Assembly (NCBI RefSeq): GCF_009914755.1
Contig: NC_060925.1
Direction: 5' to 3' (one strand)
Length of the DNA stretch: 64,000 nucleotides
From: the human T2T-CHM13v2.0 reference genome, Homo sapiens
The position numbers and the translations under genes were made by a program. Below, one piece after another: positions 29,082 through 32,407 of the stretch. Below the pieces are notes generated by a model. The model saw only the letters and a program-made list of their open reading frames with translations, did not search any database and was not told where the DNA came from. The first letter of the stretch is position 1; the number at the start of each line of letters is the position of its first letter.

Positions 29082-29382
29082 ACTCAAATTAGAGGAACTT
29101 GAAAAAAGTGAACAGATTGATCTCAAGGCCACACAGTCTATCTCTGATGGAGACACCGCAGCTCTGTGATACCTGGAGGCTCGGGTAAGGAGGAAAAGTT
29201 ATGAACTACTCTGACTTCCTTAAGATGAAAGAAAGAGTTTTTATTTTAGTAAAAAAAAAAAAAAAAAAAAAAAACCTCAGGCTTTGACAAGTCAATCACA
29301 GACCCTAGTGACAAACTCAAGTACCACTGCAGGACATCTCAAAATCTCAAAAACTTCTAAACAATGAGGCTCAAAGCTTAGG
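29082..29382 (+). pseudogene. Decayed FCRL Ig exon, D2 type
   Basis: Acceptor ttctcctatag. LKATQSISDGDTAAL*Y (cf. LQA..SVFEGDT.VLRC), SDKLKYHC at 29307-29330 (cf. DNSKYHC), TSK.MRLKA* (cf. TSKPLNIQVQ). Donor gcaagg. Internal A24 run. Confidence 0.65.
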
Positions 29383-29632
29383 GCAAGGCTAACTCTCTTC
29401 ATGGGCCTGGGCTGGAAGAGGGAGTGGACTGGTTTATAGAGAAAGAGGTGCTGACAAGAGAAATCTCTTTGATTAGCACTCTCCCAGATTAGTCTCCTAA
29501 AGAGATATGTGAGCCATGGGTCGTTGTGTCCCACGGGCTGTATGGCCCATGTTCTAGTGCTGAGGACACAATGCAATTCTTACCAGAAATTTGAGCTCAT
29601 TGCCCTGGGAAATGTGTTTGAATCTTCTCTAG

Positions 29633-29904
29633 AACTTATTCAACCTTCTGTCCCAAAAGCCAGATACTAGTATCCCATGGAGGAGAGCTCAGGGACCAAA
29701 TTCTTCCAGATATGAGAGACTCAGCTTCATTTTGGCTTATTTAGAAATGGCAGAGCTCTTAGAGCAAAGCTGATGCAAGTCCAAGAGCTTCACAGTCTGG
29801 AGACAGAAAAAAATTAAAGGTTCTTTGTGTACTGATGTCAGAGGGAGAACACGAAGGACACAGGGTATAGGAAGAAAGTCAACAACCCCAGATTCAAGTA
29901 AATA
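29633..29904 (+). pseudogene. Decayed FCRL Ig exon, D3 type
   Basis: ttctctag|ELIQPSVPKARY*YPMEESSGT...QI*ETQLHFGLFRNGRAL...Y*CQ (YWC position, 29830-29838)...SQQPQIQVN|atgagt (dead gtgagt donor). Confidence 0.75.
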
Positions 29905-30643
29905 ATGAGTGTCAGAGGGACCTGTCTGCCAGTTTGAGGGCTAAGCAGAAGGGAAGGGAAGGGGACAGATATTTGTTTCTTCTTTTCTATTTTGTTCCTA
30001 GAAACAGGGTTCCTCTTGAAAGCAGCTAGGTCCATTAGTCATCCTGGTGTCCTCCATTTCCCAATGATGCAAAGAACTGGGATGGTTATCATGATATTCC
30101 ATAAATCCCAAGCTTTATAAGGCCTCTACATCTCTATATCCTTCTTCTTCCAGTCGGTAAAACCACCAAATATTTACACTAGGTAATTATGGGGTGCCCA
30201 TCAGCTAACCATAGAGGTTGTAGGGGAAGTCAGTAGGGTAAGTGAACTGATCTCTTCTGACACAAAGCTGATAAACAACTGGGAAACATGGTCTACAAAC
30301 CTGGAACAGTGCAAAAGAGAGAGATTAGTATGGGCTGAAGCAGAGAGAAGACAGTGTCAGGGAAATCATTATGCTCGAGATAAGTCTGTACACATGAGAA
30401 GAAAGGGGGATTTATGATCTTCGGTAGTGATCTTCAAGTCAGGGTTAATATCCTCCAGTATCCTCCCTCAGAGCTACCCAGTGAGCCCCCAGACACATGC
30501 CCTATGGTGTGTCAGGATTTGCCCACCCTAACCTTTCTGAGTTCCCAAAGTGATCTGCATCTGGAGGCCACATGTTCCTGCATGAAGAGGCAGGGATTTT
30601 GCCCTCCTCCACAGAAATATGTTCAAAATTGACTCCTATTTTA

Positions 30644-31069
30644 CGTAATGGATTCTGTGATGCGCCACCCAGATCCCCTGTCAGGAATGGACTTATTGTC
30701 CCAGCTGCTAGAATTGCTGCCAGCAGATAATCCTATTATAAGCCCTCTTGGGAAAGGCTTTGGCCACTCCATCCAGGGTCATCCTCCCTTTCCAGAGCAT
30801 TGTATCCAGTGGCTGTCCATACTAGGGTATAAAGGCAGGGCCCCTAAATCTCAACCCAGGACCACTTTGAAAGATCATCCTAGACTCAGGGTGTCTATAG
30901 GGTTGGCTGAGACTTTTGTGGAGATGGCATCAAAGCCCAGCTTCTCCTTCTGTACAAAGTTGTTTCCTTCCTTTCGAGAGTTTTTGATACAGAGATCACT
31001 CCATAACAGATTTCCTACATGTTCATTTCTATCTCAGCATCCGCCTTCCTGGAAACCCAGCCTGTGATA
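30644..31069 (+). mobile_element. LTR16-like ERVL solo LTR
   Basis: ggattctgtgatgcgccacccagatcccc start and ctcagcatccgccttcctggaaacccagcctgtgata end. Confidence 0.7.
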
Positions 31070-31085
31070 TCTTGTGTTCACTCAG

Positions 31086-31365
31086 GGGTCCCCGTACTTA
31101 CATTGACCATGAGTCCCAGCTCATTTCCCTCCCTAGAGTAGGGTGAGTGATTGAATAATGCTCTTCTTTGGCTCCTTGGTGTCTAAGGTCCGAGGGGACA
31201 CCACATTCTCCTGATACAGAGAAGGCACAGGGAAGGTTTGGAAAAGAGCACTAGACATTCCCAGAGAGTAAACAGATGACCTCTGTTGTGAGTGGGGGTG
31301 ATGCTGTTCAGCTGCGAACAGCCAAGGCTGTATGTTTAGTGGGCAGGTAAATATCAATATGAGAA
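31086..31365 (+). pseudogene. Decayed FCRL Ig exon, D4 type
   Basis: ttcactcag|GG VPV..., GDTTFS*YREGTG (TGA at the core Trp, 31212), LEKSTRHSQRV, ...GDA, ANSQGCMFSGQVNINMR|ggata. Confidence 0.75.
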
Positions 31366-31820
31366 GGATATTTACCTTCATTCATCTCAACCAGCAAATC
31401 TCAAAGTATGGTCAATATCCCCAGAGGCATCATGAGAATGTTTCAAGGAGGACCCAGAAGCCAACCCTATGGAGAACAATTAGCCACTTTATGTGGCAGA
31501 GCCTGGGAGATAATTTGCCAGCTCCATGGTGTTGCTATTGCTTTTGGTGGTGGTGATGATGACGGTACTACAGGGTCCTAGAAGGATAGCCATGAGAGAT
31601 TTATGGGAACTGAGGATTCAGGACAGGTGTATGGAATGTTGCTTAAAATTCTTCAGAACAGCTCTGGGGGTGATTCTTCTGAACGTAAGATCAGGAATAT
31701 GGGGATGTTAGATATGAGAATGGGCTGTTTACCTGTTCTAGCCTCCTTGAGTAGATGGATTGATGGGAAGACTGTGGAAGCAGCAGGGGCCTTCTCTGAC
31801 AGTCCCATTTTCTCTGTCAT

Positions 31821-32407
31821 TTCCAGTGTCTAACTGTCTCCACACTCTCAGAGCTCCTGGGGTCCAGGCTGACATGGGGGAAATGGTGGAGCTTCACTGT
31901 GAGGCCTGAAAAGGATCTCCCAATCCTGAGCCACTTTTTTAAATTTTATTTTTACTTTTGGAGACAGAGCCTTGCTCTGTTGCCCAGGCTGGAGTGCAGT
32001 GGTGAGGTCTTGGCTCACTGCAACCTCCACCTCCTGGGCTCAAGCGATTCTTGTGCCTCAGCCTCCCAAATAGCTGGGATTACAGGCTCCCGTCACCATG
32101 CCAGGCTAACGTTTTGTATTTTAGTAGAGCTGGGTTTTGCCACGTTGCCCAAGGTGGTCTTGAACTCCTGAGCTCAGGCAGTTTACTTGCCACAACCTTC
32201 CAAAGTGCTAGGATTGCAGGCGTGAGCCAAGTGCCTGGCCCCTGAACCACACTTATCACAGGGATGTCCCCTTGGGCTCAGCTCCCTCTGGAAGAGGAGC
32301 ATCCTTCAACCTCTTTCTGAGTACACAGCATTCTGAAAACGTTTCCTGTGAGGCTGATGATGGCCCCAGGACCCAGCACAGTGAGGTGGTGGCACTCTTT
32401 GTCACTG
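31821..32407 (+). pseudogene. Decayed FCRL Ig exon, D5 type, split by an Alu
   Basis: [33 protein letters not shown] [Alu] YHRDVPLGSAPSGRGASFNLFLSTQHSENVSCEADDGPRTQHSEVVALFVT. Acceptor reads cat and donor reads at. Confidence 0.9.
31935..32240 (-). mobile_element. Old Alu (AluJ-like) inside the D5-type exon
   Basis: TSD cctgagccac / cctgaaccac. J-type ctgggctcaagc and high divergence. Confidence 0.9.

What the first reader, a model, noticed from the sequence alone, without database searches (positions are those of the whole stretch)
29082..32407. A hidden second FCRL gene relic with four Ig exons in D2-D3-D4-D5 order
Seen: four exon-sized blocks (29082-29382, 29633-29904, 31086-31365, 31821-32407), each carrying the motif set of a different FCRL domain type in canonical order. 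Spacing is FCRL-like: 250-nt D2-D3 intron, and a 455-nt D4-D5 intron versus 415 nt in the upstream FCRLS copy. Every block has stops or frameshifts and no donor is GT (gc, at, gg, at), so it is far older as a pseudogene than the FCRLS unit and barely shows in the ORF track. It lies downstream of the FCRLS terminal exon, so it is a separate gene copy. D2-D5 is the Ig layout of FCRLS and FCRL2. Inference: an extinct FCRL paralogue, possibly the sister or parent copy from the duplication that produced FCRLS. I do not know of a description of it.
Basis: partly seen in the sequence, partly recalled or inferred. Interest (0 to 1): 0.8.

Follow-up and report, generated by a model that had tools for sequence, protein, structure and literature searches.

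The report
Decayed second FCRL gene relic
Next to the broken human copy of the immune gene FCRLS lies a much more decayed, unannotated remnant of a second Fc-receptor-like gene, four exons long; it is a dead gene that may help show how FCRLS arose.

Summary
DNA profiles built from human FCRL3/4/5 exons hit them: D2 E=6e-5, D3 2e-22, D4 1e-23, D5 halves 1e-25 and 7e-36. The best score on 264 kb of reversed DNA was 5.1 bits. Flanking introns are homologous too, so this is an unprocessed pseudogene. Protein tools almost miss it.

It is badly broken: 5 and 7 frameshifting indels in D3 and D4, stops in every exon, an Alu with target-site duplication in D5, and four non-GT donors. The unit upstream (D4, D5, SRCR at 16.1-20.9 kb) is the true human FCRLS orthologue and has no indels. 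The relic is therefore a separate, older copy.

A tree puts it as sister to all FCRLS (support 91/82). A recent origin from the human FCRLS copy is rejected (AU p=0.014); an FCRL2 affinity is not (p=0.10). No leader, TM or SRCR exon was found. I found no description in RefSeq's table or in my paper searches. Interest is moderate.

The parts
29082..29382 (+). D2-type Ig exon relic. 301 nt, including an A-run at about 29248-29275. Acceptor AG is kept; the donor is GC.
   Evidence: nhmmer D2 profile hits 29123-29238, E=6e-5, 16.4 bits; the null best is 5.1 bits. An FCRL3 tile aligns 29332-29696 across the D2 end, the intron and the D3 start, E=7e-12. There are 2 stops in the reference frame and several frameshifting indels, but the alignment is only partial. 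No protein-level hit.
29383..29632 (+). D2-D3 intron, 250 nt, homologous to FCRL introns.
   Evidence: Tiles of FCRL3 (E=7e-12) and FCRL4 (E=3e-10) align across it. The same intron is 234, 304 and 284 nt in FCRL3, FCRL4 and FCRL5.
29633..29904 (+). D3-type Ig exon relic, 272 nt against the canonical 285. The donor is AT.
   Evidence: nhmmer D3 profile hits 29583-29942, E=2.1e-22, 72.6 bits. It is 57% nt identical to the FCRL3 D3 exon, with 5 frameshifting indels and 6 stops in the reference frame. A protein HMM gives 5.0 bits at 29713-29841.
29905..31085 (+). D3-D4 intron, 1181 nt.
   Evidence: Its 5' part, 29948-30272, aligns to the sequence just downstream of the D3 exon of the FCRL pseudogene that lies between FCRL4 and FCRL3 (E=2e-11). 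This intron is 815-823 nt in FCRL3/4.
31086..31365 (+). D4-type Ig exon relic, 280 nt against the canonical 285. The donor is GG.
   Evidence: nhmmer D4 profile hits 31045-31375, E=1.3e-23, 78.1 bits. The upstream FCRLS D4 exon aligns at E=9e-14. tblastn with FCRLS proteins gives E=0.007-0.2. There are 7 frameshifting indels and 2 stops.
31366..31820 (+). D4-D5 intron, 455 nt.
   Evidence: 31654-31924 aligns to 16678-16958 of the upstream FCRLS unit, covering intron plus D5 start (E=8e-14). It also aligns to the FCRL3 D4-D5 intron plus D5 (E=1e-11 and 9e-21).
31821..32407 (+). D5-type Ig exon relic, split by an Alu. It is 271 nt without the Alu and one target-site copy, against the canonical 279. 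The donor is AT and the acceptor AG is lost.
   Evidence: nhmmer D5 profile hits 31775-31940 (E=1.3e-25) and 32243-32485 (E=7e-36). Protein HMMs give 30 and 46 bits. It is 75.6% nt identical to FCRL3 Ig6, with a 2-nt and a 6-nt deletion and 1 stop. Genome-wide, its 3' half is 68-77% identical to the D5 exons of other FCRL genes.
31935..32240 (-). Alu inserted in the D5 exon. It is flanked by the target-site duplication CCTGAGCCAC (31925-31934) and CCTGAACCAC (32241-32250).
   Evidence: It is 68-79% identical to 10 other Alu copies in the window. The flanks were read. The D5 profile positions of the two halves overlap by 14.

Best explanation
This is an ancient, unprocessed and non-functional pseudogene. 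It is the Ig-exon array (D2, D3, D4, D5; one domain per exon, introns kept) of a second Fc-receptor-like gene copy. It lies in tandem with, and on the same strand as, the human FCRLS pseudogene, 8.15 kb downstream of that gene's SRCR exon.

Shown:
- The four exons and their introns are homologous to FCRL genes.
- They are heavily broken, and none has a usable donor.
- An Alu later landed in D5.
- The annotated lncRNA that reuses the FCRLS D5 and SRCR splice sites skips them.
- The relic is not a recent copy of the neighbouring FCRLS exons.

Inferred:
- It arose by an old tandem duplication within the FCRLS/FCRL2 group of D2-D5 genes. By tree topology this was probably before the eutherian FCRLS orthologues diverged.
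- It died long before FCRLS itself did in the human lineage.
- It has drifted neutrally since.
- It does nothing today.
For: - Exon homology at DNA level: E from 6e-5 to 7e-36, with null scores of 5.1 bits or less.
- Intron homology to FCRL3, FCRL4, the FCRL pseudogene and the upstream unit.
- Exon and intron sizes match FCRL3/4/5.
- Lesions: 5, 7 and 1 frameshifting indels and 6, 2 and 1 stops in D3, D4 and D5, plus an Alu with target-site duplication. The donors are gc, at, gg, at. The upstream FCRLS D4 and D5 exons have 0 indels.
- The upstream unit is the FCRLS orthologue. Its SRCR piece retrieved 27 proteins, 25 of which carry Ig plus SRCR domains, at 67-86% identity. tblastn gave D4 51-75%, D5 56-69% and SRCR 70-77% aa identity to 10 FCRLS proteins. 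It sits inside the FCRLS crown clade (98/95).
- Careful ML tree (28 rows x 372 columns): the relic is sister to that crown, 91/82.
- AU tests: relic + human FCRLS as a pair is rejected (p=0.0136). Relic inside Euarchontoglires FCRLS is borderline (p=0.0545).
Against: - The placement is not firm. The relic's branch is very long (1.43 changes per column), and its protein row is a projection through frameshifts with X at the breaks.
- Holding the relic with FCRL2/FCRL1 is not rejected (p=0.10).
- Mean aa identity is slightly higher to FCRL2 than to FCRLS in D2, D3 and D5.
- The D5-only tree puts it among FCRL2/3/5-type D5 exons (SH-aLRT 75).
- In the D5 DNA tree its branch (0.25) is no longer than that of the upstream FCRLS D5 (0.29). 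'Older' therefore rests on indels and stops, not on substitutions in D5.
- No leader, TM, cytoplasmic or SRCR exon was found, so a once-complete gene is not shown.
- D2 rests on 16 bits plus one tile.
Confidence: 0.8

Rival explanations
1. Dead-on-arrival partial duplication. Only the D2-D5 exon block was copied, without a promoter, leader, TM or SRCR exons, so it never was a working gene.
For: No leader, TM, cytoplasmic or SRCR exon was found around it. This covers FCRL3/4/5 gene tiles, tblastn with 24 FCRL proteins and tiles of the upstream unit. The only weak hits downstream are MIR-like repeats. The D3 and D4 exons are at roughly intron-like identity to their paralogues, 55-57%.
Against: Leader exons (one of them 21 bp, per PMC7940838 section 3) and TM exons are short. 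After this much decay they would not be detectable, so their absence says little. The sequence between the units is heavily remodelled by 5 Alus and other repeats (hub table).
Confidence: 0.25
2. Recent duplicate of the human or primate FCRLS Ig exons, which merely decayed faster.
For: It is adjacent, on the same strand and has the same D4-D5 spacing: 455 against 415 nt. Its highest aa identity over 169 columns is to the human FCRLS unit, 47%.
Against: The AU test rejects the relic + human FCRLS pair (p=0.0136). Placement inside Euarchontoglires FCRLS is borderline (p=0.0545). There are 13 frameshifting indels in relic D3-D5 against 0 in the FCRLS D4 and D5. Relic D5 is 67.7% nt identical to the upstream D5 but 74.1% to FCRL2 D5.
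Confidence: 0.03
3. The D2 and D3 blocks are the missing D2-D3 exons of FCRLS itself, moved downstream by a rearrangement. On this reading they do not belong to a second gene.
For: The human FCRLS unit lacks detectable D2 and D3 exons upstream of 16 kb, while FCRLS of other mammals has them. In the D2-D4 partition tree the relic leans to the FCRLS side (SH-aLRT 79).
Against: They sit in a complete D2-D3-D4-D5 array with FCRL-like introns and their own D4 and D5. They are far more decayed than the FCRLS D4, D5 and SRCR exons, which would have been released from selection at the same time.
Confidence: 0.05
4. Chance resemblance or a repeat-derived artefact for the D2, D3 and D4 blocks, leaving only an isolated D5 fragment.
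For: Pfam gave 0 Ig hits in 62 ORFs. blastn and genome-wide DNA searches saw nothing for D2-D4. Protein HMM scores are 5 bits or less.
Against: nhmmer E-values are 2e-22 and 1e-23, with null maxima of 3.2-3.5 bits. Each block is hit by the right domain type, in colinear order, on the right strand, with splice-site flanks aligned. The blocks lie outside the stretches NCBI masks as repeats (hub table).
Confidence: 0.01

Closest known systems
Human FCRLS pseudogene, immediately upstream in this window (RefSeq LOC100996284 'FCRL4 pseudogene' and exons 1-2 of lncRNA LOC105371458)
   Same: Same strand and same interval between CD5L and KIRREL1. Both have D4 and D5 exons with similar spacing, and the D4, D4-D5 intron and D5 are mutually alignable (E=9e-14 to 5e-20). 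Both are dead.
   Different: The upstream unit has D4, D5 and an SRCR exon, but no detectable D2 or D3. It has no indels and only 3 stops, and it nests within mammalian FCRLS (98/95). The relic has D2-D5 but no SRCR, has 13 frameshifting indels in D3-D5, and falls outside the FCRLS crown.
FCRLS of other mammals (Ig D2-D3-D4-D5 plus one SRCR domain, about 500 aa; often annotated as 'FCRL2'; Matos et al. 2021, PMC7940838)
   Same: Same Ig layout. It is the best-tree sister group (91/82). tblastn of the relic D4 favours FCRLS proteins (E=0.007-0.06).
   Different: No SRCR exon follows the relic's D5. The relic D5 reads ...VELHCEA.KGS..., like FCRL2/3/5, where 10 of the 11 FCRLS proteins and the human FCRLS unit have HCED or a close variant (the exception is dog); sequences.
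FCRL2 (transmembrane, D2-D3-D4-D5, in the main FCRL1-5 cluster on the opposite strand)
   Same: Same Ig layout. Slightly higher aa identity in D2, D3 and D5. The D5-only tree groups them. A joint clade is not rejected (p=0.10).
   Different: The real human FCRL2 lies about 170 kb away on the minus strand (D4 and D5 exons at T2T chr1:156904278-156905787). No TM or cytoplasmic exons are seen at the relic. The best tree does not join them.
Rearranged FCRL pseudogene between FCRL4 and FCRL3 (T2T chr1:156766941-156779924)
   Same: An unprocessed FCRL pseudogene made of Ig exons. The sequence downstream of its D3 exon aligns to the relic's D3-D4 intron (E=2e-11).
   Different: It is young and close to FCRL5: 73-91% aa identity to FCRL5 exons. 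Its exon order is scrambled (D1, D5, D5, D2, D3), and most of its exons are still open.

Membership tests
FCRL (Fc receptor-like) gene family | Ig-like exons of the family's D1-D5 subtypes | tested here: met
   Type-specific DNA profiles hit each block with the matching type: D2 6e-5, D3 2e-22, D4 1e-23, D5 1e-25 and 7e-36. At protein level only D5 is clear. Pfam Ig models gave 0 hits in 62 ORFs.
FCRL (Fc receptor-like) gene family | One Ig domain per exon of about 250-285 nt, with short introns and canonical order | tested here: met
   Relic exons are 301, 272, 280 and 271 nt (the last without the Alu); introns are 250, 1181 and 455 nt. In FCRL3/4/5, exons are 252-285 nt and introns 234-304, 815-823 and 432 nt.
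FCRL (Fc receptor-like) gene family | Split signal peptide with a 21-bp second exon (feature as stated in PMC7940838, section 3) | not testable with these tools
   No leader-like hit upstream of 29082. Exons this short cannot be found after such decay.
FCRL (Fc receptor-like) gene family | Transmembrane and cytoplasmic (ITIM/ITAM) exons after the Ig exons | tested here: not met
   None found in 32.4-48 kb with gene tiles or with tblastn of 24 proteins at E<20. The weak hits at 39.3 kb are MIR-like. Absence is weak evidence, given the decay.
FCRLS | A type B SRCR exon following the D5 exon | tested here: not met
   The only SRCR match in the window is 20585-20929, upstream of the relic. Tiles of that exon find nothing downstream.
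FCRLS | Falls within the clade of mammalian FCRLS orthologues | tested here: not met
   The FCRLS crown (12 rows, including the human upstream unit) excludes the relic at 98/95; the relic is its sister at 91/82. Placement inside Euarchontoglires FCRLS has AU p=0.0545.
FCRL2 | Falls within the clade of FCRL2 orthologues | tested here: inconclusive
   The best tree does not join them. A joint clade with FCRL2/FCRL1 is not rejected (p=0.10). D5 alone groups with FCRL2 (SH-aLRT 75).
Processed (retro-) pseudogene | Introns absent, and the copy lies at an unrelated site | tested here: not met
   Introns are present and homologous to FCRL introns. The relic sits in the FCRL region itself.

The most novel reading that the evidence does not exclude
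The relic is the fossil of the twin, or the parent, of FCRLS. On this reading, an FCRL2-like D2-D5 gene was duplicated in tandem in the CD5L-KIRREL1 interval before the eutherian radiation. One copy captured an SRCR exon and became FCRLS; the other died and survives only as these four exons. That would be the first physical trace of the recombination history that the literature proposes for FCRLS but has been unable to demonstrate (PMC7940838, discussion).
Probability: 0.3. Interest if true: 0.55.

Novelty: new member of a known kind. Interest (0 to 1): 0.4.

Why it matters
FCRLS is a widely used mouse microglia marker, and the main evolutionary study states that it 'does not exist in humans' (PMC7940838, section 3). 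That study discarded sequences with stops or frameshifts (passages seen).

This window shows that the human genome keeps a recognisable FCRLS pseudogene and, behind it, a second and much older D2-D5 FCRL relic. If the relic is shared across eutherians, it gives a dated landmark for how the FCRL/SRCR chimera arose and for how many FCRL copies once stood between CD5L and KIRREL1.

There is also a practical lesson. Protein-based searches and BLAST missed three of the four exons; only DNA profile HMMs found them.

It has no expected function or medical meaning.

Tried and rejected
I redid it on stop-to-stop ORFs: 0 Ig hits in the relic.
- blastn (word size 7) of 28-37 kb against 1-28 kb saw only the D5 halves and Alus.
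- Whole-genome DNA search with the D2, D3 and D4 blocks returned only self-matches.
- Protein HMMs of the domain types gave only noise-level colinear hits for D3 and D4, and slightly better ones with richer profiles.
- Search for a TM exon: hits at 39268-39491 and 17950-18054 turned out to be MIR-like repeats.
- Search for a second SRCR exon, or for a copy of the FCRLS D5-SRCR intron downstream: none.
- Dating by branch length was abandoned. The D4 branch (0.41-0.49) and the D5 branch (0.25) disagree, and alignment error around frameshifts inflates distances.
- Pairwise global alignment of introns gave unstable short alignments; shuffled controls scored as high. I do not use those identities.
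- The representative search returned 150 unnamed proteins. I did not add them to the tree, because without names or positions they could not show an orthologue.
DNA trees therefore lack FCRL1 and have FCRL2 only for D4 and D5.
- One script stopped after the D5 and D4 trees.
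Full report
**What is there**

The window is human chr1 between CD5L and KIRREL1 (hub note). Read by eye, only the last block looks like an Ig exon. Its two halves translate to ...VELHCEA*KGS... and ...SGRGASFNLFLSTQHSENVSCEADDG...SEVVALFVT, and they flank an Alu.

The first tests agreed with that impression:
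- blastn of 28-37 kb against the rest of the upstream window found only 31793-31902 matching 16824-16934 (70%) and 32277-32405 matching 17001-17129 (76%), plus Alus.
- A whole-genome search with 32230-32407 found 8 other FCRL D5 exons at 68-77% identity.
- Pfam found no Ig domain in any of 62 + strand ORFs of 28900-32600.
- Upstream, Pfam did find Ig at 16068-16352 and 16831-17277, and SRCR at 20762-20938 (130 ORFs scanned).

**The decisive test**

I fetched 200 kb of the human FCRL5-FCRL4-FCRL3 region and found its 25 Ig-exon ORFs by iterated HMM search. All-against-all comparison sorted them into five domain types.

Protein HMMs of these types, run on the six-frame translation of the window, again gave strong hits only for the upstream D4 and D5 and the two relic D5 halves. 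The full list held four noise-level hits of the right type, strand and colinear order at 29707-29918 (D3) and 31043-31385 (D4).

DNA profile HMMs of the same exons with 30-nt flanks settled the matter (alignments):
- D2: 29123-29238, E=6e-5
- D3: 29583-29942, E=2.1e-22
- D4: 31045-31375, E=1.3e-23
- D5: 31775-31940, E=1.3e-25, and 32243-32485, E=7.3e-36

On 264 kb of reversed sequence the best scores were 5.1, 3.2, 3.5 and 2.8 bits.

Tiling the FCRL3/4/5 genes over the window gave 1494 hits, 336 of them outside masked repeats. It showed that introns are homologous too:
- 29332-29696 aligns to the FCRL3 D2 end, intron and D3 start (E=7e-12).
- 29948-30272 aligns to the sequence after the D3 exon of an FCRL pseudogene (E=2e-11).
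- 31656-31942 aligns to the FCRL3 D4-D5 intron plus D5.

The upstream unit aligns to the relic over D4, the D4-D5 intron and D5 (E=9e-14 to 5e-20).

**Anatomy and damage**

AG acceptors are kept at D2, D3 and D4. The donors are gc, at, gg, at. Introns are 250, 1181 and 455 nt, against 234-304, 815-823 and 432 nt in FCRL3/4/5.

Lesions measured against FCRL3 exons:
- D3: 57% nt identical, 5 frameshifting indels, 6 stops in the reference frame.
- D4: 55% identical, 7 frameshifting indels, 2 stops.
- D5: 75.6% identical, a 2-nt and a 6-nt deletion, 1 stop.
- D2: aligns only in part (51% over 179 nt) and holds an A-run.
- D5 also holds a minus-strand Alu at 31935-32240, flanked by a 10-nt target-site duplication (9 of 10 bases identical).

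The upstream D4 and D5 exons have no indels at all.

**What the neighbour is**

The SRCR piece at 20762-20938 retrieved 27 proteins. Of these, 25 carry Ig plus SRCR domains; they are the FCRLS orthologues of bats, cattle, elephant, galago, colugo, rodents, shrews and dog, mostly named 'FCRL2', at 67-86% identity.

Ten of them align to the window at D4 16134-16436 (51-75%), D5 16840-17130 (56-69%) and SRCR 20585-20929 (70-77%), and to nothing upstream of 16 kb. The upstream unit is therefore the human FCRLS orthologue, lacking D2 and D3.

The relic lies behind its last exon, inside intron 2 of lncRNA LOC105371458. Exon 1 of that lncRNA ends at the FCRLS D5 donor (17131), and exon 2 starts at the SRCR acceptor (20613) (hub table).

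**Whose relative is the relic**

FCRLS and FCRL2 proteins both read D2-D3-D4-D5 with my profiles (9 of 11 FCRLS rows and all 10 FCRL2 rows; 2 FCRLS rows lost D3 to overlapping envelopes).

I projected the relic onto the FCRL3 codons with X at every break. I then aligned it with 11 FCRLS, 9 FCRL2, human FCRL3/4/5, one FCRL1, a wallaby FCRL, one galago FCRL and the human FCRLS unit, giving 28 rows x 372 columns. One short human FCRL2 isoform was left out.

Results:
- The careful ML tree puts the relic as sister to all FCRLS (91/82). The FCRLS crown, including the human unit, is supported at 98/95.
- AU tests: relic + human FCRLS rejected (p=0.0136); relic inside Euarchontoglires FCRLS borderline (p=0.0545); relic + FCRL2/FCRL1 not rejected (p=0.10).
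- The signal is mosaic. The D2-D4 partition leans to FCRLS (SH-aLRT 79), while D5 alone groups with FCRL2-type D5 exons (75).
- Mean aa identity is a little higher to FCRL2 in D2, D3 and D5, and to FCRLS in D4.
- D5 exons of FCRL2/3/5 form a tight cluster. This fits concerted evolution, which is an inference.

The relic's branch is very long, so all placements carry that caveat.

**Age**

I could not date it soundly. The indel load, 13 frameshifting events in about 820 nt against 0 in 564 nt of FCRLS, says it is several times older as a pseudogene than FCRLS. PMC7940838 infers that FCRLS was lost in Haplorrhini about 74 Mya (section 15, read). The tree topology suggests a split before the eutherian FCRLS orthologues diverged. 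Branch lengths disagree between D4 and D5, so I do not use them.

**What is missing**

No leader, TM, cytoplasmic or SRCR exon was found near the relic. Weak hits at 39.3 kb are MIR-like. Whether it was ever a complete gene stays open.

**Is it known**

- The hub's RefSeq table has no feature at 29-32.4 kb.
- In Matos et al. 2021 (PMC7940838) I read the outline, passages and sections 3, 11 and 15, and searched its 2 supplementary files. The paper says FCRLS does not exist in humans. Sequences with stops or frameshifts were discarded. 'Remains' were searched for between KIRREL1 and CD5L, but no result is given. The supplement lists human under FCRL2 and FCRL3 only, and 'pseudogene', 'remains' and 'remnant' occur 0 times.
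- My other searches returned nothing that describes it: 'FCRLS pseudogene human' (25 papers), 'FCRL pseudogene CD5L KIRREL' (20), 'LOC105371458' (2) and 'Fcrls human ortholog' (23). I saw listings only, apart from passages of PMC10003336, PMC2413239 and PMC4016189.
- Subscription journals, GENCODE/Ensembl and pseudogene catalogues were not searchable here.

**Verdict**

This is a real, unannotated, ancient unprocessed FCRL pseudogene of four Ig exons. It is separate from, and older than, the adjacent human FCRLS pseudogene. It belongs to the FCRLS/FCRL2 group of D2-D5 genes, and its exact affinity is unresolved. It is of moderate interest, mainly for the history of FCRLS.

Noticed in passing
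window 16152-16436, 16852-17131, 20613-20929 (+): This is the human FCRLS orthologue, surviving as a pseudogene. The D4 exon has one in-frame TAG, the D5 exon is open, and the SRCR exon has two TGA stops; none has a frameshift. It is 51-77% aa identical to FCRLS of 10 mammals. No D2 or D3 exon is found upstream. The literature I read says FCRLS does not exist in humans, and RefSeq names only the D4 exon, as an 'FCRL4 pseudogene'.
   Followed up: partly
window 16152-16436 versus FCRL4 D4 exon (T2T chr1:156723204-156723488): The FCRLS-pseudogene D4 exon is 93% nt and 89% aa identical to the human FCRL4 D4 exon, but only 51-75% aa identical to FCRLS D4 of other mammals. This suggests gene conversion between FCRL4 and FCRLS in primates, and it explains RefSeq's name for the exon. 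The direction of conversion was not resolved.
   Followed up: partly
window 17054-17131, 20613-20873, 36741-36846: Exon 1 of lncRNA LOC105371458 ends at the FCRLS D5 donor and exon 2 starts at the SRCR acceptor, so the lncRNA is the residual transcript of the FCRLS pseudogene. Its exon 3 lies in an interspersed repeat that occurs at 6 or more other places in the window, on both strands.
   Followed up: partly
window 12431-12733 and 13501-13734 (+): These stretches align to the regions 1.5-2.5 kb upstream of the first Ig exons of FCRL3 (E=8e-8) and of FCRL5 and the FCRL pseudogene (E=2e-7 to 5e-7). They could be the leader and intron region of the FCRLS pseudogene, or a shared repeat.
   Followed up: no
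L021-L022, T2T chr1:156766941-156779924 (-), outside the window: A rearranged FCRL5-like pseudogene lies between FCRL4 and FCRL3. Its exon order is D1, D5, D5 (split by a stop), D2, D3, and it is 73-91% aa identical to FCRL5 exons.
   Followed up: no
window 22095-22380 (+): The sequence after the SRCR exon still aligns to the C-terminal extensions of two hystricognath or ctenodactylid rodent FCRLS proteins (E=2.6e-4 and 0.28). Orthology of the FCRLS unit therefore runs on past the coding end.
   Followed up: no
window 17950-18054 and 39268-39491 (+): MIR-like repeat copies. They caused weak hits to an FCRL4 intron and to the FCRL2 TM region, and they are not exons. The MIR label comes from my recollection of the repeat's sequence, not from a repeat library.
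   Followed up: yes
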